Of a stretch of 23,188 bases of DNA, positions 9,911 through 22,604 are shown in pieces. Source of the DNA: a virus. Taxonomy: Duplodnaviria > Heunggongvirae > Uroviricota > Caudoviricetes. The notes beneath the pieces were generated by a model that saw only the letters and a list, made by a program, of their open reading frames with translations, was not told the DNA's origin and searched no databases. Numbering within the stretch: the stretch's first letter is position 1; each line of letters starts with the position of its first letter. Made by a program: the position numbers and the translations under genes. The stretch lies in the IMG/VR virus record IMGVR_UViG_2728369607_000006. The stretch is one strand, 5' to 3'.

Positions 9911-10326
9911 GTTTTGCCCTGAAACTGGCGCGTGAGATGGGGCGACCCGACTGGCGCGCCATGCTTGCCGGGATGTCATCCACGGAGTATGCCGACTGGC
10001 ACCGCTTTTACAGTACCCATTATTTTCATGATGTTCTGCTGGATATGCACTTTTCCGGGCTGACGTACACCGTACTCAGCCTGTTTTTCAGCGATCCGGA
10101 TATGCATCCGCTGGATTTCAGTCTGCTGAACCGGCGCGAGGCTGACGAAGAGCCTGAAGATGATGTGCTGATGCAGAAAGCGGCAGGGCTTGCCGGAGGC
10201 GTCCGCTTTGGTCCGGACGGGAATGAAGTTATCCCCGCTTCCCCGGATGTGGCGGACATGACGGAGGATGACGTAATGCTGATGACAGTATCAGAAGGGA
10301 TCGCAGGAGGAGTCCGGTATGGCTGA
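9488..10326 (+). CDS. T: Tail assembly chaperone gpG-T fusion produced by programmed -1 ribosomal frameshift
   Basis: The -1 frame ORF 9892-10326 (FDGELSFALKLAREMGRPDW...) has no independent start context and continues from G at the G GGA AAG heptamer (9886-9892); its stop overlaps the H start. Same arrangement as lambda G/GT. Confidence 0.8.
9886..9892 (+). promoter_or_regulatory. Programmed -1 frameshift slippery heptamer G GGA AAG (G to G-T)
   Basis: GGGAAAG read as G|GGA|AAG in the G frame, 6 codons before the G stop; the -1 frame is open from here to 10326. Confidence 0.8.
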
Positions 10327-12898
10327 ACCGGTAGGCGATCTGGTCGTTGATTTAAGTCTGGATGCGGCCAGATTTGACGAGCAGATGGCCAGAGTCAGGC
10401 GTCATTTTTCCGGTACGGAAACTGATGCGAAAAAAACAGCGGCAGTCGTTGAACAGTCGCTGAGCCGACAGGCGCTGGCTGCACAGAAAGCGGGGATTTC
10501 CGTCGGGCAGTATAAAGCCGCCATGCGTATGCTGCCTGCACAGTTCACCGACGTGGCCACGCAGCTTGCAGGCGGGCAAAGCCCGTGGCTGATCCTGCTG
10601 CAACAGGGGGGGCAGGTTAAGGACTCCTTCGGCGGGATGATCCCCATGTTCAGGGGGCTTGCCGGTGCGATCACCCTGCCGATGGTGGGGGCCACCTCGC
10701 TGGCGGTGGCGACCGGTGCGCTGGCGTATGCCTGGTATCGGGGCAACTCAACCCTGTCCGATTTCAACAAAACGCTGGTCCTTTCCGGCAATCAGGCCGG
10801 GCTGACGGCAGATCGTATGCTGGTCCTGTCCAGAGCCGGGCAGGCGGCAGGGCTGACGTTTAACCAGACCAGCGAGTCACTCAGCGCACTGGTTAAGGCG
10901 GGGGTAAGCGGTGAGGCTCAGATTGCGTCCATCAGCCAGAGTGTGGCGCGTTTCTCCTCTGCATCCGGCGTGGAGGTGGACAAGGTCGCTGAAGCCTTCG
11001 GGAAGCTGACCACTGACCCGACGTCGGGGCTGACAGCGATGGCGCGTCAGTTCCATAACGTGACGGCGGAGCAGATTGCGTATGTTGCTCAGTTGCAGCG
11101 TTCCGGAGATGAAGCCGGGGCATTGCAGGCGGCGAACGAGGCCGCAACGAAAGGGTTTGATGACCAGACCCGCCGCCTGAAAGAGAACATGGGCACGCTG
11201 GAGACCTGGGCAGACAGGACAGCACGGGCATTCAAATCCATGTGGGATGCGGTGCTGGATATTGGTCGCCCGGACACTGCCCAGGGAATGCTGGAGAAAG
11301 CAGAAAAGGCTTTTGATGAGGCGGACAAAAAATGGCAGTGGTATCAGAGCCGGAGCCACCGGCGCGGTAAAACCTCAGCATTTCTTGCCAATCTCCGGGG
11401 AGCATGGGAGGACAGAGCGAATGCGCAACTTGGGCTTTCAGCCGCCACGTTGCAGGCCGATCTTGAAAAGGCCAGAGAGATGGCAGCAAAGGACTGGGCC
11501 GAGTCTGAGGCATCACGGCTGAAATATACCGAAGAGGCGCAGAAGGCTTACGAACGGCTGCAGACGCCGCTGGAGAAATATACCGCCCGTCAGGAAGAAC
11601 TGAACAAGGCACTGAAAGACGGGAAAATCCTGCAGGCGGATTACAACACGCTGATGGCGGCGGCGAAAAAGGATTATGAAGCGACGCTGAAAAAGCCGAA
11701 ACAGTCCGGCGTGAAGGTGTCTGCGGGCGATCGTCAGGAAGACAGTGCTCATGCTGCCCTGCTGACGCTTCAGGCTGAACTCCGGACGCTGGAGAAGCAT
11801 GCCGGAGCAAATGAGAAAATCAGCCAGCAGCGCCGGGATTTGTGGAAGGCGGAGAGTCAGTTCGCGGTACTGGAGGAGGCGGCGCAACGTCGCCAGCTGT
11901 CTGCACAGGAGAAATCCCTGCTGGCGCATAAAGATGAGACGCTGGAGTACAAACGCCAGCTGGCTGCACTTGGCGACAAGGTTACGTATCAGGAGCGCCT
12001 GAACGCGCTGGCGCAGCAGGCGGATAAATTCGCACAGCAGCAACGGGCAAAACGGGCCGCCATTGATGCGAAAAGCCGGGGGCTGACTGACCGGCAGGCA
12101 GAACGGGAAGCCACGGAACAGCGCCTGAAGGAACAGTATGGCGATAATCCGCTGGCGCTGAATAACGTCATGTCAGAGCAGAAAAAGACCTGGGCGGCTG
12201 AAGACCAGCTTCGCGGGAGCTGGATGGCAGGCCTGAAGTCCGGCTGGAGTGAGTGGGAAGAGAGCGCCACGGACAGTATGTCGCAGGTTAAAAGTGCAGC
12301 CACGCAGACCTTTGATGGTATTGCACAGAATATGGCGGCGATGCTGACCGGCAGTGAGCAGAACTGGCGCAGCTTCACCCGTTCCGTGCTGTCCATGATG
12401 ACAGAAATTCTGCTTAAGCAGGCAATGGTGGGGATTGTCGGGAGTATCGGCAGCGCCATTGGCGGGGCTGTTGGTGGCGGCGCATCCGCGTCAGGCGGTA
12501 CAGCCATTCAGGCCGCTGCGGCGAAATTCCATTTTGCAACCGGAGGATTTACGGGAACCGGCGGCAAATATGAGCCAGCGGGGATTGTTCACCGTGGTGA
12601 ATTTGTCTTCACGAAGGAGGCAACCAGCCGGATTGGCGTGGGGAATCTTTACCGGCTGATGCGCGGCTATGCCACCGGCGGTTATGTCGGTACACCGGGC
12701 AGCATGGCGGACAGTCGGTCGCAGGCGTCCGGGACGTTTGAGCAGAATAACCATGTGGTGATTAACAACGACGGCACGAACGGTCAGATAGGTCCGGCTG
12801 CTCTGAAGGCGGTGTATGACATGGCCCGCAAGGGTGCCCGTGATGAAATTCAGACACAGATGCGTGATGGTGGCCTGTTCTCCGGAGGTGGACGATGA
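10319..12898 (+). CDS. H: Tail tape measure protein gpH
   Basis: 859-aa ORF MAEPVGDLVVDLSLDAARFDEQMARVRRHF... with a Gly-rich C-terminal region and long coiled-coil-like middle; lambda gpH is 853 aa as recalled. Confidence 0.93.
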   Translation: MAEPVGDLVVDLSLDAARFDEQMARVRRHFSGTETDAKKTAAVVEQSLSRQALAAQKAGISVGQYKAAMRMLPAQFTDVATQLAGGQSPWLILLQQGGQVKDSFGGMIPMFRGLAGAITLPMVGATSLAVATGALAYAWYRGNSTLSDFNKTLVLSGNQAGLTADRMLVLSRAGQAAGLTFNQTSESLSALVKAGVSGEAQIASISQSVARFSSASGVEVDKVAEAFGKLTTDPTSGLTAMARQFHNVTAEQIAYVAQLQRSGDEAGALQAANEAATKGFDDQTRRLKENMGTLETWADRTARAFKSMWDAVLDIGRPDTAQGMLEKAEKAFDEADKKWQWYQSRSHRRGKTSAFLANLRGAWEDRANAQLGLSAATLQADLEKAREMAAKDWAESEASRLKYTEEAQKAYERLQTPLEKYTARQEELNKALKDGKILQADYNTLMAAAKKDYEATLKKPKQSGVKVSAGDRQEDSAHAALLTLQAELRTLEKHAGANEKISQQRRDLWKAESQFAVLEEAAQRRQLSAQEKSLLAHKDETLEYKRQLAALGDKVTYQERLNALAQQADKFAQQQRAKRAAIDAKSRGLTDRQAEREATEQRLKEQYGDNPLALNNVMSEQKKTWAAEDQLRGSWMAGLKSGWSEWEESATDSMSQVKSAATQTFDGIAQNMAAMLTGSEQNWRSFTRSVLSMMTEILLKQAMVGIVGSIGSAIGGAVGGGASASGGTAIQAAAAKFHFATGGFTGTGGKYEPAGIVHRGEFVFTKEATSRIGVGNLYRLMRGYATGGYVGTPGSMADSRSQASGTFEQNNHVVINNDGTNGQIGPAALKAVYDMARKGARDEIQTQMRDGGLFSGGGR

Positions 12899-15300: not shown

Positions 15301-18300
15301 ATGGGTAAAGGCAGCAGTAAGGGGCATACCCCGCGCGAAGCGAAGGACAACCTGAAGTCCACGCAGCTGCTGAGTGTGATCGATGCCATCAGCGAAGGGC
15401 CGGTTGAAGGTCCGGTGGATGGATTAAAAAGCGTGCTGCTGAACAGTACGCCGGTGCTGGACACTGAGGGGAATACCAACATCTCCGGTGTCACGGTGGT
15501 GTTCCGTGCCGGTGAGCAGGAGCAGACACCGCCGGAGGGGTTTGAATCCTCCGGCTCCGAGACGGTGCTGGGTACGGAAGTGAAATATGACACGCCGATC
15601 ACCCGCACCATTACGTCTGCAAACATCGACCGTCTGCGCTTTACCTTCGGCGTGCAGGCACTGGTGGAAACCACCTCAAAGGGGGACCGGAATCCGTCGG
15701 AAGTCCGCCTGCTGGTTCAGATCCAGCGTAATGGTGGCTGGGTGACGGAAAAAGACATCACCATTAAGGGCAAAACCACCTCGCAGTATCTGGCCTCGGT
15801 GGTGGTGGGTAACCTGCCGCCGCGCCCGTTCAATATACGGATGCGCAGGATGACGCCGGACAGCACCACAGACCAGCTGCAGAACAAAACGCTCTGGTCG
15901 TCATACACCGAAATCATCGATGTGAAACAGTGCTACCCGAACACGGCACTGGTCGGCGTGCAGGTGGATTCGGAGCAGTTCGGCAGCCAGCAGGTGAGCC
16001 GTAATTATCATCTGCGCGGGCGCATTCTGCAGGTGCCGTCGAACTATAACCCGCAGACGCGGCAATACAGCGGTATCTGGGACGGAACGTTTAAGCCAGC
16101 ATACAGCAACAACATGGCCTGGTGTCTGTGGGATATGCTGACCCATCCGCGCTACGGCATGGGGAAACGTCTTGGTGCGGCGGATGTGGACAAATGGGCG
16201 CTGTATGTCATCGGCCAGCATTGCGATCAGTCGGTGCCGGACGGTTTTGGCGGCACGGAGCCGCGCATCACCTGTAATGCGTACCTGACCACACAGCGCA
16301 AGGCGTGGGATGTGCTCAGTGATTTCTGCTCTGCGATGCGCTGTATGCCGGTATGGAACGGGCAGACGCTGACGTTCGTGCAGGACCGACCGTCGGATAA
16401 GGTGTGGATCTATAACCGCAGTAATGTGGTGATGCCGGATGATGGTGCGCCGTTCCGCTACAGCTTCAGCGCCCTGAAGGACCGCCATAATGCCGTTGAG
16501 GTGAACTGGATTGACCCGAATAACGGCTGGGAGACGGCGACAGAGCTTGTGGAGGACACGCAGGCCATTGCCCGTTACGGTCGTAACGTCACGAAGATGG
16601 ATGCTTTTGGCTGTACCAGCCGGGGGCAGGCACACCGCGCCGGGCTGTGGCTGATTAAAACAGAACTGCTGGAAACGCAGACCGTGGACTTCAGCGTGGG
16701 TGCCGAAGGGCTTCGCCATGTACCGGGCGATGTCATTGAAATCTGCGATGATGACTATGCCGGTATCCGCACCGGCGGGCGCGTGCTGGCGGTAAACAGC
16801 CAGACCCGGACGCTGACGCTCGACCGTGAAATCACGCTGCCATCTTCCGGCACCACGCTGATAAGCCTGGTTGACGGGCAGGGGAGTCCGGTCAGCGTGG
16901 AGGTTCAGTCCGTCACCGACGGCGTGAAGGTGAAAGTGAGCCGTGTTCCTGACGGCGTTGCTGAATACAGCGTATGGGGGCTGAAGCTGCCGACGTTGCG
17001 CCAGCGCCTGTTCCGCTGCGTGAGTATCCGTGAGAACGACGACGGCACGTATGCCATCACCGCCGTGCAGCATGTACCGGAAAAAGAGGCCATCGTGGAT
17101 AACGGGGCGCACTTTGACGGCGACCAGAGCGGCACGGTAAATGGTGTCACGCCGCCAGCGGTGCAGCACCTGACCGCAGAAGTCACCGCAGACAGCGGGG
17201 AATACCAGGTGCTGGCGCGCTGGGACACGCCGAAGGTGGTGAAGGGCGTGAGCTTCCTGCTTCGCCTGACCGTGGCAGCGGATGACGGCCGTGAGCGGCT
17301 GGTCAGCACGGCCCGGACGACGGAAACCACTTACCGCTTCACACAACTGGCTCTGGGGAACTACAGGCTGACAGTCCGGGCAGTAAATGCGTGGGGGCAG
17401 CAGGGCGATCCGGCGTCGGTATCGTTCCGGATTGCCGCACCGGCAGCGCCGTCGCGGATTGAGCTGACGCCGGGCTATTTTCAGATAACCGCCACGCCGC
17501 ATCTTGCGGTTTATGACCCGACGGTACAGTTTGAGTTCTGGTTCTCGGAAAAACGGATTGCGGATATCAGGCAGGTTGAAACCAGCGCGCGTTATCTTGG
17601 TACGGCACTGTACTGGATAGCCGCCAGTATCAATATCAAACCGGGCCATGATTATTATTTTTACGTTCGCAGTGTGAACACCGTTGGCAAATCGGCATTC
17701 GTGGAGGCTGTCGGTCAGCCGAGTGATGATGCATCAGGCTATCTGGATTTTTTCAAAGGCGAGATAGGGAAAACCCATCTGGCTCAGGAGCTGTGGACGC
17801 AGATTGATAACGGTCAGCTTGCGCCTGACCTGACTGAAATCAGGACGTCCATAACGGATGTCAGCAATGAAATAACACAGACCGTCAATAAGAAACTGGA
17901 AGACCAGAGTGCAGCGATCCAGCAGATACAGAAGGTTCAGGTTGATACAAATAATAACCTGAACAGCATGTGGGCAGTGAAGCTGCAGCAGATGCAGGAC
18001 GGACGCCTTTATATCGCGGGTATCGGTGCCGGTATTGAGAACACCCCTGACGGCATGCAGAGTCAGGTGCTGCTGGCAGCAGACAGGATTGCGATGATTA
18101 ATCCTGCGAATGGCAACACAAAGCCGATGTTTGTTGGTCAGGGCGATCAGATATTCATGAATGAAGTGTTCCTGAAACGCCTGACGGCCCCCACCATTAC
18201 CAGCGGCGGTAATCCTCCGGCATTTTCCCTGACATCAGACGGGAGACTGACGGCGAAAAATGCGGATATCAGTGGCAGTGTGAATGCGAACTCAGGAACG

Positions 18301-18798
18301 CTCAACAATGTCACGATTAACCAGAACTGTACGATTAAGGGCATGCTGGAGGCGACCCAGGTCAGAGGAGATTTCGTTAAAGCTGTATCAAAAGCCTTCC
18401 CGAAAAAAGTCGGTACGTGGGGTAACACGGAAACACCAAACGGTACGGTTACAGTCACCATCAGCGATGATCATAACTTTGACCGCCAGATTATTATTCC
18501 GCCCATTATTTTTAACGGTATAGCGTATGACGATCCGGGGAGCGGAAATAACCCAGGAGGCACGCGATACACGGGTTATGGTTTTGAAGTTCGCAAAAAC
18601 GGCGTATTAATCGCATCCAGAGAAACTAAAGGGGCCATTCCCGGTAGTTACAGTGCAGTTATTGATATGCCGAGTGGCAGGGGAAGCGTCACTCTGGAGT
18701 TTAAGATTTTCCAGAAAGGCAATCAGGGGGCAGGCAATATCACCGACTGTACGGTGATTGTGACCAAAAAAGCCGCTTCCGGCATCAGTATTCGTTGA
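15301..18798 (+). CDS. J: Central tail fiber / host specificity protein gpJ
   Basis: 1165-aa [37 protein letters not shown]...; N-terminal ~1000 aa lambda-J-like, C-terminal ~150 aa divergent from lambda J as recalled (lambda J is 1132 aa); Shine-Dalgarno TGAGGA at 15295-15300. Confidence 0.93.
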
Positions 18799-18816
18799 AA
18801 TATTTATAACCCCAAT

Positions 18817-18848
18817 AAAGGGCGTCAGGAATGACGCCTTTTTTATTG
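18817..18848 (+). terminator. Rho-independent terminator downstream of J
   Basis: GGCGTCA-GGAA-TGACGCC 7-bp stem with flanking A/T extension, followed by TTTTTTATT. Confidence 0.6.
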
Positions 18849-18868
18849 CAGAAAAGCGAGAGGTAATT

Positions 18869-19468
18869 ATGCGTAAAGTTTGTGCAGCAATTTTGTCCGC
18901 AGCCATTTGTCTGGCCGTATCCGGTGCGCCTGCATGGGCGTCTGAACATCAGTCCACGCTGAGCGCGGGGTATCTTCATGCCTCGACGAACGTCCCCGGC
19001 AGTGATGATCTGAACGGGATTAACGTGAAATACCGTTATGAGTTTACGGACACACTGGGGCTGGTGACGTCATTCAGCTATGCAGGAGACAAGAATCGCC
19101 AGCTGACCCGTTACAGCGATACCCGCTGGCATGAAGATTCCGTTCGTAACCGCTGGTTCAGCGTAATGGCGGGGCCGTCTGTGCGCGTGAATGAATGGTT
19201 CAGCGCGTATGCGATGGCGGGTGTAGCTTACAGCCGTGTGTCGACTTTCTCCGGGGATTATATCCGCGTAACTGACAATAAGGGGAAAACGCACGATGTG
19301 CTGACCGGAAGTGATGACGGTCGCCACAGCAACACGTCTCTGGCGTGGGGGGCTGGCGTGCAGTTTAACCCGACCGAGTCCGTGGCCATTGATGTCGCTT
19401 ATGAAGGTTCCGGCAGTGGCGACTGGCGCACTGACGGTTTCATCGTGGGTGTCGGTTATAAATTCTGA
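18869..19468 (+). CDS. lom: Lom/Ail/PagC-family outer membrane beta-barrel protein (lysogenic-conversion moron)
   Basis: 199 aa with signal peptide MRKVCAAILSAAICLAVSGAPAWA; C-terminus AYEGSGSGDWRTDGFIVGVGYKF identical to lambda Lom and ends in aromatic F typical of outer-membrane beta-barrels; flanked by hairpin terminators on both sides; Shine-Dalgarno GAGAGG upstream. Confidence 0.85.
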   Translation: MRKVCAAILSAAICLAVSGAPAWASEHQSTLSAGYLHASTNVPGSDDLNGINVKYRYEFTDTLGLVTSFSYAGDKNRQLTRYSDTRWHEDSVRNRWFSVMAGPSVRVNEWFSAYAMAGVAYSRVSTFSGDYIRVTDNKGKTHDVLTGSDDGRHSNTSLAWGAGVQFNPTESVAIDVAYEGSGSGDWRTDGFIVGVGYKF

Positions 19469-19494
19469 TTAGCCAGGTAACACAGTGTTATGAC

Positions 19495-19522
19495 AGCCCG
19501 CCGGTTCAGGCGGGCTTTTTTG
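19495..19522 (+). terminator. Rho-independent terminator downstream of lom
   Basis: AGCCCGCC-GGTTCA-GGCGGGCT 8-bp GC-rich stem followed by TTTTTT, immediately before the stf ribosome-binding site. Confidence 0.6.
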
Positions 19523-19532
19523 TGGGGTGAAT

Positions 19533-22500
19533 ATGGCAGTAAAGATTTCAGGTGTACTGAAAGACGGCACAGGAAAACCGGTACAGAACTGCACAATCCA
19601 GCTGAAAGCAAAACGTAACAGCACCACGGTGGTGGTGAACACGCTGGCCTCAGAAAATCCGGATGAAGCCGGGCGTTACAGCATGGACGTTGAGTACGGG
19701 CAGTACAGCGTTATTCTGTTGGTGGAGGGATTCCCGCCGTCACATGCCGGGACCATCACCGTGTATGAAGATTCCCGACCCGGTACGCTGAATGATTTTC
19801 TCGGTGCCATGACGGAGGATGATGCCCGTCCTGAGGCACTGCGCCGTTTTGAACTGATGGTGGAAGAGGTGGCGCGTAACGCGTCCGCGGTGGCACAGAA
19901 CACGGCAGCCGCGAAGAAGTCAGCCAGCGATGCCAGCACATCAGCCCGTGAGGCGGCAACCCATGCGACTGATGCTGCAGGCTCAGCACGCGCAGCCAGC
20001 ACGTCAGCCGGACAGGCCGCGTCGTCGGCTCAGTCAGCGTCTTCCAGCGCAGGAACGGCATCAACAAAGGCCACTGAAGCGGAAAAAAGTGCTGCCGCTG
20101 CAGAGTCCTCAAAAAGCGCGGCGGCCACCAGTGCCGGTGCCGCGAAAACGTCAGAAACGAATGCTGCAGCGTCACAACAATCAGCAGCCACTTCTGCATC
20201 CACCGCGACTACGAAAGCGTCAGAAGCTGCCACCTCAGCCCGGGATGCGGCGGCTTCAAAAGAGGCGGCAAAATCATCAGAAACGAACGCATCCTCGAGC
20301 GCCAGTAGCGCAGCTTCCTCGGCAGCAGCGGCAGGAAATTCCGCGAAGGCGGCAAAAACGTCCGAGACGAACGCCAGGTCTTCTGAAACGGCAGCGGGAC
20401 AGAGCGCCTCGGCTGCGGCAGGCTCAAAAACAGCGGCTGCGTCGTCTGCCAGTGCAGCGTCAACAAGTGCCGGGCAGGCCTCAGCCAGTGCCACCGCCGC
20501 CGGAAAATCGGCAGAAAGCGCCGCATCGTCTGCTTCAACAGCCACAACGAAGGCTGGCGAAGCCACTGAACAGGCCAGCGCAGCAGCGAGGTCTGCTTCC
20601 GCAGCGAAGACATCCGAAACGAACGCGAAAGCGTCGGAAACCAGCGCAGAATCCTCAAAAACGGCTGCCGCATCGTCCGCCAGTTCGGCGGCGTCATCGG
20701 CCTCATCGGCGTCTGCTTCAAAAGATGAGGCGACCAGACAAGCGTCAGCAGCGAAGGGCAGCGCCACGACGGCATCCACGAAGGCAACAGAGGCTGCTGG
20801 CAGTGCGACGGCGGCAGCACAGAGCAAGAGTACGGCAGAATCCGCAGCAACGCGCGCCGAGACAGCAGCAAAACGGGCAGAGGATATTGCATCCGCTGTG
20901 GCGCTTGAGGATGCGAGCACGACGAAAAAGGGGATAGTACAGCTCAGTAGTGCGACTAACAGCACTTCCGAGTCACTGGCGGCAACACCAAAAGCCGTTA
21001 AGGCCGCGTATGACCTGGCTAACGGGAAATACACCGCACAGGATGCAACGACAGCACAGAAAGGGATAATCCAGCTAAGCAGCGCGACCAACAGCACGTC
21101 TGAAACGCTTGCCGCGACACCAAAGGCAGTAAAAACAGCCTATGACAATGCTGAGAAACGTCTGCAGAAAGATCAGAACGGTGCGGATATCCCTGGCAAA
21201 GACACCTTTACGAAAAATATTGGTGCCTGCCGTGCCTTTGGTGGGTCAGTAAGCACAATAACAGGAAACTGGACGACTGCACAGTTTATCGAGTGGCTGG
21301 ATTCTCAGGGAGCATTTAACCATCCCTACTGGATGTGCAAGGGTTCCTGGTCTTATGGCAATAATAAAATCATTACTGATACTGACTGCGGTAATATTCA
21401 TCTCGCCGGAGCTGTCATTGAAGTAATGGGGATAAAGTCAGCGATGACGATCCGCATTACCACACCGACCACCTCCACTGGTGGTGGAACAACTAACGCC
21501 CAGTTTACCTATATTAATCACGGAACAGATTATTCACCTGGCTGGCGAAGGGACTATAACTCCAGAAATAAGCCAACGGCATCAGAGATCGGGGCGTTAC
21601 CGTCAGGTGGAACAGCAGTATCATCAGTTAATCTGTCTTCAAAAGGTCGGGTAACCGCGCTGACAGACAATACGCAGGGGGCAACAGGTCTTGAGTTATA
21701 CGAGGTGTATAACAACGGATATCCAACAGCGTATGGAAATATCATTCACCTGAAAGGGATGACAGCCGTTGGCGAAGGTGAGTTACTCATCGGCTGGAGT
21801 GGTACAAGCGGTGCTCATGCTCCGGCATTTATTCGTTCACGACGGGATACGACCGACGCAAACTGGTCGCCGTGGGCGCAGCTTTACACCTCGGCTCATC
21901 CTCCTGCAGAGTTTTATCCAGTCGGTGCACCAATCCCGTGGCCATCAGATACCGTTCCGTCTGGCTATGCCCTGATGCAGGGGCAGACTTTTGACAAATC
22001 TGCATACCCGAAACTTGCAGCGGCTTATCCGTCAGGCGTGATCCCTGATATGCGTGGCTGGACGATTAAGGGCAAACCTACCAGTGGTCGGGCCGTATTG
22101 TCTCAGGAACAGGACGGCATTAAATCGCATACCCACAGCGCCAGCGCATCCAGTACGGATTTGGGGACGAAAACCACATCGTCGTTTGATTACGGCACTA
22201 AATCCACGAATAACACTGGTGCGCATACCCATAGTTTAAGTGGCAGCACGAATGCAGCTGGTAATCACAGCCATAGAGATGGCCGTCGATTTAACCCCAG
22301 TGTTTTTAAAGATACTTATCAATATGGTTATACAAGCTCAGGTCAAAATACCTGGGGTGTACAAGGCTCAGTAGGTATGTCTACGGGGTGGTTAGCGAAT
22401 ACCAGTACAGATGGTAATCATAGCCATTCACTGTCCGGCACAGCAGCATCTGCAGGTGCACACGCGCATACTGTCGGTATTGGTGCTCATACGCACTCCG

Positions 22501-22604
22501 TTGCGATTGGTTCACATGGACACACCATCACCGTTAACGCTGCTGGTAACGCGGAAAACACCGTCAAAAACATCGCATTTAACTATATTGTGAGGCTTGC
22601 ATAA
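19533..22604 (+). CDS. stf: Side tail fiber protein Stf (long variant with repeat tract and His-rich distal tip)
   Basis: ATG at 19533 ([27 protein letters not shown]...) matches the lambda Stf N-terminus; the ORF track starts 2 codons upstream at GTG 19527. C-terminus ...[19 protein letters not shown] matches lambda Stf. About 1023 aa versus 774 aa recalled for full-length lambda Stf; stop overlaps the tfa start (TAATG). Confidence 0.9.
19890..20890 (+). repeat. Imperfect tandem repeat tract encoding the Ala/Ser/Thr-rich shaft of Stf
   Basis: Recurrent nucleotide motifs such as gcg/aaa-acg-tc(a/c)-ga(a/g)-acg-aa(c/t)-gc encoding AKTSETNA (at least 4 copies) and many SASAA/ASSAS variants; low-complexity GC-rich coding sequence. 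Boundaries approximate. Confidence 0.7.
20927..21143 (+). repeat. Two copies of an ~86-bp unit (period ~131 bp) encoding the phage fibre repeat KKGI(V/I)[11 protein letters not shown](S/T)LAATPKAVK(A/T)AYD
   Basis: Copy 1 at 20927-21012 and copy 2 at 21058-21143; the protein sequence is conserved while many synonymous positions differ (agtagtgcgact versus agcagcgcgacc). Confidence 0.75.

What the first reader, a model, noticed from the sequence alone, without database searches (positions are those of the whole stretch)
18300..19400. Apparent module swap covering the J receptor-binding C-terminus, the J-lom intergenic region and the lom N-terminus
J follows lambda J through about ...[16 protein letters not shown], then the last ~150 residues diverge in sequence and length (whole J is 1165 aa versus 1132 recalled for lambda), ending ...[12 protein letters not shown]. 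Downstream, Lom has a divergent N-terminal two-thirds but a C-terminal strand identical to lambda Lom. The lambda J C-terminal domain is the LamB-binding determinant, so this element probably has a different or altered receptor specificity, and the J distal domain and lom appear to travel together as one exchangeable unit.
Basis: partly seen in the sequence, partly recalled or inferred. Interest (0 to 1): 0.5.

Follow-up and report, generated by a model that had tools for sequence, protein, structure and literature searches.

The report
434-type J tip and lom cassettes
Compared with phage lambda, this lambda-like phage carries the phage-434 version of the tail-tip receptor-binding domain (probably OmpC-specific) and of the neighbouring lom gene; this is a common, already sequenced arrangement, and the two pieces prove to be separate swappable cassettes rather than one unit.

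Summary
The block is real. Against lambda, identity collapses between window 18307 and 19396: J aa 1003-1165 is 38% identical and Lom aa 25-176 is 38%. The same block is about 97% identical to phage 434, whose J confers OmpC use, so a receptor change relative to lambda is well supported.

- J does not follow lambda up to that point. A separate patch (17716-18135, in the alpha-helical shaft) differs from both lambda and 434 and carries 28 of the 33 extra residues.
- J-distal and lom are not one unit. In 61 related loci the same lom sits behind four or more distal-domain types, with the junction at the J stop codon, and lom is precisely absent from 13 loci. It is a moron cassette (18848-19515) between the J terminator and the stf ribosome-binding site.

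The allele pair is ordinary: it covers at least 80% of the query in 1974 of 5426 complete E. coli genomes.

One lead survives. PDB 9wso contains lambda Lom together with LamB, expressed lambda Lom blocks lambda-vir, and every typed partner of the window-type lom with a known receptor uses OmpC. Lom type may therefore track the receptor class. This is untested.

The parts
15301..18798 (+). Gene J (tip attachment protein / central tail fibre), 1165 aa
   Evidence: ORF. Pfam hits above threshold: Phage-tail_3, FNIII-A_GpJ, Ig_J, Ig_J_second, Phage_Tail_Tip and Ig_GpJ_C. aa 1-805 are 98% identical to lambda and 434 J.
17716..18135 (+). Patch A: variant of the J alpha-helical shaft and upper fibre (aa 806-945) with a 28-residue insertion. 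It differs from both lambda and 434.
   Evidence: 41-42% aa identity to lambda and 434 with 28 gap columns. The insertion lies between lambda aa 835 and 839, inside the shaft described by Ge & Wang 2024. It assorts independently of the distal domain.
18136..18306 (+). Conserved junction segment (J aa 946-1002, ...[14 protein letters not shown]...[16 protein letters not shown]). It is shared by all distal-domain types and is the probable left crossover site.
   Evidence: 89% aa identity to lambda and 434. At least 70% nucleotide identity to the window in about 99% of 68 relatives. Brodel et al. chose lambda aa 964 (window aa 992) in this stretch as their engineering fusion point.
18307..18798 (+). 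J receptor-binding (Ig-like) domain cassette, 434 type (aa 1003-1165). Predicted OmpC-specific.
   Evidence: 158/163 identical to 434 J and 38% to lambda J. PF12421 Ig_GpJ_C at aa 1029-1164, 88.9 bits against a cut-off of 26.2. Aligns end to end with solved lambda and A8 gpJ distal domains. Only 35-37% of relatives share this type.
18821..18847 (+). Intrinsic terminator after J (hairpin GGCGTCAGGAATGACGCC followed by TTTTTTATT)
   Evidence: Sequence. Fold energy -15.9 kcal/mol. The hairpin was found by the scan. A terminator is annotated at the same place in phage 434. It is retained in lom-less relatives.
18848..19515 (+). lom moron cassette (RBS, lom and its own terminator), present or absent as a block
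   Evidence: 12 lom-less relatives align up to window 18847-18848 and resume at 19516-19520. In most of them the J terminator T-run is joined directly to the stf RBS.
18869..19468 (+). lom, 434 type: Ail/Lom-family outer-membrane beta-barrel protein, 199 aa
   Evidence: PF06316 Ail_Lom over the full length, E 1.3e-122. 192/199 identical to 434 Lom and 46% to lambda Lom. Matches solved lambda Lom (9wso), OmpX and Ail. N-terminal signal-like sequence ...APAWA/SE and C-terminal ...GYKF are read from the sequence.
19397..19468 (+). Conserved 3' end of lom (aa 177-199). This is the right edge of the lambda/434-type difference.
   Evidence: 23/23 aa identical to lambda. Nucleotide identity returns to 92-95% from about 19400 and continues into stf.
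19495..19521 (+). Intrinsic terminator after lom
   Evidence: Found by the scan. Sequence. Fold energy -18.3 kcal/mol. A terminator is annotated at the equivalent place in 434.
19533..22604 (+). stf (side tail fibre), downstream neighbour. Its first ~0.9 kb (to about 20441) is shared with lambda at 87.6% nucleotide identity, and is 93-97% identical over its first ~110 nt.
   Evidence: ORF (listed from GTG 19527; ATG 19533 gives MAVKISGVL as in lambda). Pfam phage_tail_N, Phage_fiber_2 and Collar. Identity profile.

Best explanation
The window is the late (head-tail) region of a lambda-like temperate phage or prophage of E. coli. Both happen to be of the phage-434 type, whereas lambda carries a different allele of each.

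Cassette 1 (18307-18798) encodes the C-terminal Ig-like receptor-binding domain of the trimeric tail-tip protein J. It is exchanged by homologous recombination between the conserved fibre segment just upstream (18136-18306) and the J 3' end and terminator. Because it is 97% identical to the 434 domain, the phage most probably adsorbs irreversibly to the porin OmpC rather than to LamB. This step is inferred.

Cassette 2 (18848-19515) is a moron: a ribosome-binding site, lom and its own terminator, inserted exactly between the J terminator and the stf ribosome-binding site. It encodes an Ail/Lom-family outer-membrane beta-barrel protein.

A third mosaic patch further upstream (17716-18135) lengthens the J alpha-helical shaft by 28 residues and accounts for most of the length difference from lambda.
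For: - Sharp identity boundaries against lambda, with 97-98% flanks and about 98% identity to 434 inside the block.
- The domain boundary agrees with Pfam: Phage_Tail_Tip ends at aa 1000 and Ig_GpJ_C starts at aa 1029.
- Independent assortment. Among 61 IMG/VR loci, intact window-type lom follows distal types C0 (19 loci), C2 (17), C3 (2) and C5 (1). lom is absent from 13 loci across C0, C2, C3 and C4.
- Pairwise profiles confine the distal-domain swap to about 18300-18810.
- In the population profile, only about 35% of relatives are at least 90% identical to the window inside the distal domain, against about 85% across most of lom.
- The exact cassette edges and both terminators are mapped.
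- 434 J confers OmpC use (Hantke 1978 cited).
- Distal-domain swapping at this same junction has been shown to work by engineering.
- The allele pair is widespread: it covers at least 80% of the query in 1974 of 5426 complete E. coli genomes, with two genomes 100% identical.
Against: - OmpC use is inferred from 97% identity. Five substitutions separate this domain from 434's, and their effect is unknown.
- No sigma-70-like promoter was found for lom by the simple scan, so one defining feature of a moron is unconfirmed.
- The sample of relatives was chosen by similarity of the J middle region and includes clonal relatives, so the counts are not independent events.
- There is partial linkage between distal type and a Lom loop variant.
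Confidence: 0.82

Rival explanations
1. One reading: the J distal domain, the intergenic region and lom form one physical exchange unit that moves together between phages.
For: - Against lambda the divergence is continuous from 18307 to 19396.
- Lambda's own pair is always found together, in 22 phage records and 96-100 E. coli genomes.
- There is partial linkage between distal type and a Lom loop variant.
Against: - The same lom follows four or more distal types, with the junction at the J stop codon.
- lom is precisely deleted or absent in 13 of 61 loci.
- The intergenic region goes with lom, not with J.
- The lambda pair occurs only in near-identical (at least 99%) lambda copies, so it amounts to a single lineage and offers no independent support.
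Confidence: 0.07
2. Functional coupling without physical linkage. Lom is an exclusion factor that binds the receptor used by the adjacent J tip, so selection keeps the lom type matched to the receptor class (lambda-type Lom with LamB, window/434-type Lom with OmpC) while distal-domain sequence types swap freely within a class.
For: - PDB 9wso contains lambda Lom and the same maltoporin sequence as the gpJ-LamB complex 8xcj.
- Expressed lambda Lom gives strong defence against lambda-vir and none against T7.
- All three typed partners of window-type lom with a known receptor use OmpC: C0 = 434; C2 = '1A2'; C3 = 'A8' and phi330.
- lom lies next to receptor-binding genes even in the podophage 933W.
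- lom mutations recur in lambda coevolution lines.
Against: - There are effectively only two independent lom classes with known receptors, so the association has almost no statistical weight.
- Window-type lom is simply the majority allele.
- lom is dispensable: absent from 13 of 61 loci.
- Stx1_132418/L099 pairs an A8-like distal domain (77%) with a lambda-like Lom (60%). If that domain binds OmpC, it is a counter-example.
- The nature of the 9wso interface is unknown to me, and no paper on it was found.
- The lysogen level of Lom does not exclude lambda-vir.
Confidence: 0.3
3. The block diverged in place from a lambda-like ancestor by point mutation under diversifying selation-free drift or diversifying selection, without recombination.
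For: Receptor-binding domains and surface loops are common targets of diversifying selection (general knowledge).
Against: - Step-like boundaries, from 97% to below 50% within tens of bases.
- Several indels.
- The block is about 98% identical to 434, while the flanks are equally close to lambda and 434.
- The same alleles recur in different combinations.
Confidence: 0.02
4. Assembly chimera or artefact at 18300-19400.
For: None found.
Against: The 1101-nt stretch is 100% identical in two complete E. coli chromosomes and 99.8% identical in many others. The 3-kb stretch 17000-20000 is contiguous in isolated phages, for example PhiR42_1 at 99.5%.
Confidence: 0.01

Closest known systems
Phage 434 host-range (h434) region: J C-terminal domain plus 434 lom (OL657226)
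   Same: J aa 1003-1165 is 158/163 identical and Lom is 192/199 identical. The terminator-lom-terminator layout is the same. 434 J confers OmpC use.
   Different: Five substitutions in the distal domain and seven in Lom. 434 has the short, lambda-type alpha-helical shaft where the window has a 28-residue-longer variant (patch A). The stf genes diverge after about window 19954.
Lambda J receptor-binding domain with LamB (PDB 8xcj) and lambda Lom (PDB 9wso)
   Same: Same gene order J-lom-stf, same Pfam families (PF12421, PF06316), and the same conserved junction sequences on both sides.
   Different: 38% aa identity in the distal domain, with four indel sites. 38% identity in Lom aa 25-176. Lambda binds LamB. 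The lambda alleles are confined to lambda itself: 22 phage records and 100 of 5426 genomes, mostly laboratory strains.
Engineered lambda gpJ chimeras A8 and 1A2 (Brodel et al. 2024; PDB 9wca/9wcb)
   Same: Distal domains were swapped at lambda aa 964, in the same conserved stretch that ends at the natural breakpoint here. Specificity changed from LamB to OmpC. Both donor types occur naturally upstream of the window-type lom.
   Different: Different distal-domain sequence types: C3 and C2 are 41-44% identical to the window's C0. They are laboratory constructs.
Morons of lambdoid phages (for example the HK97 gene 15 element; Cumby et al. 2012, PMC3594210)
   Same: A discrete extra gene inserted between two genes that are adjacent in relatives, with its own terminator. 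Lambda lom is reported to be expressed from the prophage.
   Different: No promoter-like site was detected upstream of lom by the simple scan. The composition contrast is modest.
Receptor-blocking exclusion proteins encoded next to receptor-binding genes (Cor of phi80/N15/HK022 and Llp of T5, both acting on FhuA; recalled from memory, not checked here)
   Same: Position immediately downstream of the receptor-binding gene. For lambda Lom there is a solved co-complex with the phage's own receptor and a homotypic defence phenotype.
   Different: Unrelated protein family: Lom is an 8-stranded Ail/OmpX-like barrel. No functional data exist for the window-type Lom. This is a resemblance in how it may work, not family membership.

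Membership tests
Lambda-type tip attachment protein J with C-terminal Ig-like receptor-binding domain | Full J domain series (hub, FNIII/Ig, tail-tip fibre, Ig_GpJ_C), each above the Pfam gathering score | tested here: met
   Six Pfam families above their cut-offs, with Ig_GpJ_C at aa 1029-1164 scoring 88.9 bits against 26.2. NCBIfam lambda_TipJ aligns to the last 220 aa, below the whole-protein cut-off because only a fragment was submitted.
Lambda-type tip attachment protein J with C-terminal Ig-like receptor-binding domain | Ig-like fold of the distal domain | tested here: inconclusive
   The single-sequence AlphaFold2 model had a mean pLDDT of 50.5, too low for a fold search. At sequence level the domain aligns end to end with solved lambda and A8 gpJ (E 1e-110 to 1e-119).
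434-type (h434) J distal domain | Near-identity to phage 434 J aa 975-1137 | tested here: met
   158/163 identical with no gaps.
434-type (h434) J distal domain | OmpC-dependent, LamB-independent adsorption | not testable with these tools
   Inferred from the literature on 434 and lambda h434. Needs plating on ompC and lamB deletion strains.
Ail/Lom family outer-membrane beta-barrel (PF06316) | Full-length match to the family profile above the gathering score | tested here: met
   E 1.3e-122, 407 bits against a cut-off of 23, profile positions 1-199 of 199. PDB matches to lambda Lom, OmpX and Ail.
Ail/Lom family outer-membrane beta-barrel (PF06316) | Signal peptide, and a C-terminal aromatic residue typical of outer-membrane barrels | tested here: met
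   Read from the sequence: MRKVCAAILSAAICLAVSGAPAWA/SE... and ...GVGYKF. No dedicated predictor was run.
Ail/Lom family outer-membrane beta-barrel (PF06316) | Eight-stranded barrel fold | tested here: inconclusive
   The single-sequence model had a mean pLDDT of 38.1. The fold is inferred only from homology to solved OmpX and Ail.
Moron (independent accessory cassette in a phage late operon) | Present or absent as a block between genes that are adjacent in related phages | tested here: met
   12 lom-less loci join window 18847-18848 to 19516-19520.
Moron (independent accessory cassette in a phage late operon) | Own terminator | tested here: met
   Hairpin 19495-19516 followed by a T-run, -18.3 kcal/mol.
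Moron (independent accessory cassette in a phage late operon) | Own promoter active in the lysogen | tested here: inconclusive
   No sigma-70-like site in 18650-19650 by the consensus scan. Prophage expression is reported only for lambda lom.
Receptor-masking exclusion factor matched to the phage's own receptor (works-like class: Cor, Llp) | Encoded next to the receptor-binding gene | tested here: met
   lom starts 70 nt after the J stop codon. The same synteny holds in all lom-bearing relatives, and lom is near the tail-fibre genes in 933W.
Receptor-masking exclusion factor matched to the phage's own receptor (works-like class: Cor, Llp) | Binds the receptor of the cognate phage | not testable with these tools
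   The only evidence is for lambda Lom: it shares PDB entry 9wso with LamB. Nothing is known for the window-type Lom and OmpC.
Receptor-masking exclusion factor matched to the phage's own receptor (works-like class: Cor, Llp) | Allele type tracks the receptor class across phages | tested here: inconclusive
   Consistent for the lambda type (LamB) and for C0, C2 and C3 (all OmpC) with window-type lom. However, there are only two independent lom classes with known receptors, and one ambiguous pairing (Stx1_132418/L099).

The most novel reading that the evidence does not exclude
Lom proteins may be receptor-matched exclusion factors. Under this reading, the window/434-type Lom binds or masks OmpC, just as lambda Lom appears to bind LamB (PDB 9wso). 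Its job would be to protect lysogens or late-infected cells from wasteful adsorption by kin phages. That would explain why lom sits next to the receptor-binding gene, and why the lom type correlates with the receptor class (OmpC versus LamB) even though distal-domain sequence types recombine freely around it.
Probability: 0.3. Interest if true: 0.65.

Novelty: already known. Interest (0 to 1): 0.3.

Why it matters
As it stands, this is a textbook example of lambdoid mosaicism. It is useful mainly for annotation: this prophage should be called an OmpC-type (h434-like) lambdoid, not a LamB-type one. It also gives precise natural junctions for engineering J.

The part that could matter is the lom lead. 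Lom has lacked a clear phage-related function for decades. If lom alleles are matched to the receptor used by the neighbouring J tip, that would give Lom a role parallel to Cor and Llp. It would explain the conserved position of lom beside receptor-binding genes in both siphophages and podophages, and it would predict which resident prophages interfere with OmpC-targeted or LamB-targeted therapeutic phages and delivery particles.

Tried and rejected
- Structure prediction of the J distal part (aa 946-1165) and of Lom. Only single window sequences could be submitted. Mean pLDDT was 50.5 and 38.1, too poor for a fold search, so no fold comparison was run.
- PADLOC scan of window and lambda Lom: no defence-family match.
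- Promoter scan around lom: nothing found.
- Search for an independent lineage with a lambda-type (LamB) distal domain, to replicate the lom/receptor association. None exists in the phage collection (21 records at or above 99%, all others below 50%), and megablast of lambda's version of the block found only near-identical (at least 95%) copies in E. coli genomes.
- Phage D2, the only partial match, is a lambda copy with a deletion from lambda 18698 to 19462 that removes the end of the distal domain and most of lom. It is not informative.
- The lambda h434 imm21 laboratory hybrid carries 434-type annotation coordinates from J through the Nle effector genes, so it does not define a minimal exchange unit.
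- Genome-collection scan with Lom. The 100% lambda-lom hits were low-coverage contigs in unrelated genera, apparently lambda DNA contamination.
- The C5 distal type has no relative above 60% identity in the phage collection, so its receptor stays unknown.
- Literature searches found no paper on a Lom-LamB or Lom-OmpC interaction.
Full report
WHAT IS THERE

The window is the left (head-tail) arm of a lambda-like phage. It is collinear with lambda from nu1 to the tail-fibre assembly gene. In the region of the finding:
- J is 15301..18798 (1165 aa).
- A lom-like ORF is 18869..19468 (199 aa).
- stf follows, from 19533.
- Pfam assigns J the complete lambda gpJ domain series. It ends with Phage_Tail_Tip (aa 872-1000) and the receptor-binding Ig_GpJ_C domain (aa 1029-1164).
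- Pfam assigns the 199-aa protein to Ail_Lom over its full length, E 1e-122.

CHECKING THE OBSERVATION

Against lambda NC_001416, blastn gives:
- 96.9-97.8% identity up to window 17797;
- a weak 76.5% match over 17967-18354;
- nothing over 18354-19341;
- 87.6% from 19341 onwards.

A 60-nt sliding profile and mismatch maps put the edges of the unalignable block at about 18305-18320 and about 19396-19408.

At the protein level:
- J aa 1003-1165 is 38% identical to lambda, with 17 gap columns;
- Lom aa 25-176 is 38% identical;
- Lom aa 177-199 is 23/23 identical.

- J aa 806-945 (17716-18135) is also highly divergent: 41% identity with a 28-residue insertion. This patch, not the distal domain, explains 28 of the 33 extra residues relative to lambda.
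- The divergent part of Lom is 88% of the protein, not two-thirds.

WHAT THE BLOCK IS

The same block is about 98% identical in nucleotides to phage 434 (OL657226). J aa 1003-1165 is 158/163 identical and Lom is 192/199 identical. Patch A, by contrast, differs equally from lambda and from 434, which are alike there.

So relative to lambda the window has three mosaic segments. Two of them, the distal J domain and lom, are of the 434 type.

The arrangement is common:
- The 1101-nt stretch is covered at 80% or more in 1974 of 5426 complete E. coli genomes, and is 100% identical in two of them.
- The 3-kb stretch 17000-20000 is 95-99.5% identical in many isolated phages, including PhiR42_1, Kati, mEp332, ev099 and Ayreon.
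- Lambda's own version is the rare one. It occurs in 22 phage records, all at or above 99%, and in 100 genomes, mostly K-12 lysogens and BL21(DE3) derivatives. At protein level no other phage has a lambda-type distal domain above 50% identity, apart from a deleted lambda copy.

RECEPTOR SPECIFICITY

- Ge & Wang 2024 state that replacing lambda J with the 434 tail-fibre gene makes the phage bind OmpC, the 434 receptor. They define the J domains as hub, FNIII, alpha-helical shaft, beta-prism fibre and receptor-binding domain.
- Hantke 1978, cited by Brodel et al., is the original 434/OmpC report.
- With 97% identity to 434 in the domain that determines specificity, OmpC use by this phage is the best inference. 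It remains an inference.
- The left breakpoint (window aa 1002/1003, lambda aa 974/975) lies at the end of the conserved stretch ...[16 protein letters not shown]. [quoted passage not shown]

DO J-DISTAL AND LOM TRAVEL TOGETHER?

I fetched 80 IMG/VR loci sharing the J middle region at 97% aa identity or more. Among the 61 typable loci:

| Distal type | Intact window-type lom | Disrupted | Absent | Contig ends before lom |
|---|---|---|---|---|
| C0 (window/434) | 19 | 4 | 1 | 3 |
| C2 | 17 | 0 | 4 | 1 |
| C3 | 2 | 1 | 7 | 0 |
| C4 (C2-like, truncated) | 0 | 0 | 1 | 0 |
| C5 | 1 | 0 | 0 | 0 |

Further evidence:
- Pairwise identity profiles against C2, C3 and C5 relatives show divergence only between about 18300 and about 18810. 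lom is 93-100% identical, and the intergenic region goes with lom.
- Across 68 loci spanning the region, 96-100% are at least 90% identical to the window through almost all of 17300-18140. Only about 35% are inside the distal domain, and about 85% are across most of lom.
- Lom-less relatives align up to window 18847-18848 and resume at 19516-19520. In most of them the T-run of the J terminator is joined directly to the stf ribosome-binding site.

Hence lom with its RBS and its own terminator (18848-19515) is a discrete insertion between two terminator hairpins, of -15.9 and -18.3 kcal/mol. That is the classical moron layout.

The 'one exchangeable unit' reading is therefore not supported. The long continuous divergence from lambda arises because lambda differs in two adjacent cassettes. 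A Lom loop variant (aa 72-80, GDKNRQLTR versus NAEDEQKTH) shows partial linkage with distal type, but every combination occurs, as expected for close neighbours that do recombine.

- The PDB holds lambda Lom in entry 9wso. The same entry contains the maltoporin sequence used in the gpJ-LamB complex 8xcj. So lambda Lom has been solved together with lambda's own receptor. I found no paper describing it.
- Separately, a 2025 Cell Host & Microbe study found that expressed lambda Lom gives strong defence against lambda-vir but none against T7. The authors proposed exclusion of kin phage, while noting that the lysogen level of Lom does not exclude lambda-vir.

I then asked which receptors the partners of the window-type lom use:
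- C0 is 434 (OmpC).
- C3 is the 'A8' gpJ, solved with OmpC in 9wcb. It is also, at 99% identity, the distal domain of phi330, which fails to plate on an ompC deletion strain and carries a 95% window-type Lom.
- C2 is the '1A2' gpJ of Brodel et al. (127 of 150 residues recovered by exact 4-mers from the OCR-damaged supplement), which is also OmpC-dependent.

So every partner of the window-type lom whose receptor is known uses OmpC. The LamB-binding lambda domain is paired with the Lom type that co-occurs with LamB in a solved structure. This is consistent with lom type tracking the receptor class.

The support is thin:
- There are effectively two independent lom classes with known receptors.
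- The window type is simply the majority allele.
- lom is dispensable.
- Stx1_132418/L099 pairs an A8-like domain (77%) with a lambda-like Lom (60%), and its receptor is unknown.

I rate this reading at about 0.3.

COMPARISON WITH WHAT IS KNOWN

- The closest known object is the phage 434 host-range region with its lom.
- Membership of the gpJ and Ail/Lom families is met by profile and by solved-structure sequence matches.
- Fold-level confirmation failed because only single-sequence models could be made.
- The moron definition is met for block presence/absence and for the terminator, but not shown for a promoter.
- The resemblance to Cor and Llp (receptor-blocking proteins encoded beside receptor-binding genes; recalled from memory) concerns how Lom may work. 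It is not family membership.

VERDICT

The receptor-switch interpretation is well supported by homology. The single-unit interpretation is not. Interest is low to moderate (0.3), carried mainly by the untested idea that Lom is matched to the receptor.

Noticed in passing
window 17716-18135 (J aa 806-945): A third mosaic patch in J differs from both lambda and 434 (41% aa identity). It inserts 28 residues into the alpha-helical shaft, the element that flips and partly refolds on receptor binding in lambda. Most relatives in the IMG/VR sample carry this long form, and it assorts independently of the distal domain.
   Followed up: partly
window ~11304-11507 (tape measure gene H, 10319..12898): A divergent patch with a 6-residue insertion at lambda H aa ~323-385, in an otherwise ~97% identical gene. 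A 2026 Nature paper links variation in TMP aa 300-400 (phage PhiR68.2, a close relative of this window) to ManYZ-independent injection and reduced sensitivity to the SNIPE nuclease.
   Followed up: no
window 19059-19118 (Lom aa ~64-83): A mini-variable patch within window-type lom (aa 72-80 GDKNRQLTR versus NAEDEQKTH/NAKDEQKTH). It is probably a surface loop and is only partly linked to the J distal type.
   Followed up: partly
window 19533-22604 (stf): The side tail fibre gene is intact, lacking the frameshift that splits it into two ORFs (orf-401 and orf-314) in the lambda reference genome, and is 1023 aa long. Residues 101-470 are 36% Ala and 22% Ser, a low-complexity stretch. Similarity to lambda and 434 stf is patchy after the N-terminal domain.
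   Followed up: no
L084-L101, L104, L108, L111, L112 (GTDB genome contigs): Lambda lom at 95-100% identity turns up in short or low-coverage contigs of Neobacillus, Kitasatospora, Pseudomonas, Shewanella, Bradyrhizobium and others. This is almost certainly lambda DNA contamination of those assemblies.
   Followed up: no
L122 (phage D2, OM475427): A lambda-identical J up to lambda 18698, then a deletion to lambda 19462. It removes the end of the receptor-binding domain and most of lom, leaving a J/lom-tail fusion ORF. The right edge of the deletion lies within a few bases of where detectable similarity between the two lom types resumes (lambda 19458).
   Followed up: partly
L127 (phage 933W, NC_000924 43752-45427): In this short-tailed Stx phage, a distinct Lom type (33% identical to the window's) lies three genes downstream of the tail fibre gene. 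So lom keeps its position beside receptor-binding genes across tail morphotypes.
   Followed up: no
L124 / L099 (Stx1_132418 and a mis-binned MAG contig): A third Lom class (60% identical to lambda Lom, 46% to the window's) follows an A8-like J distal domain (77%). It is a natural test case for whether lom type follows the receptor.
   Followed up: partly
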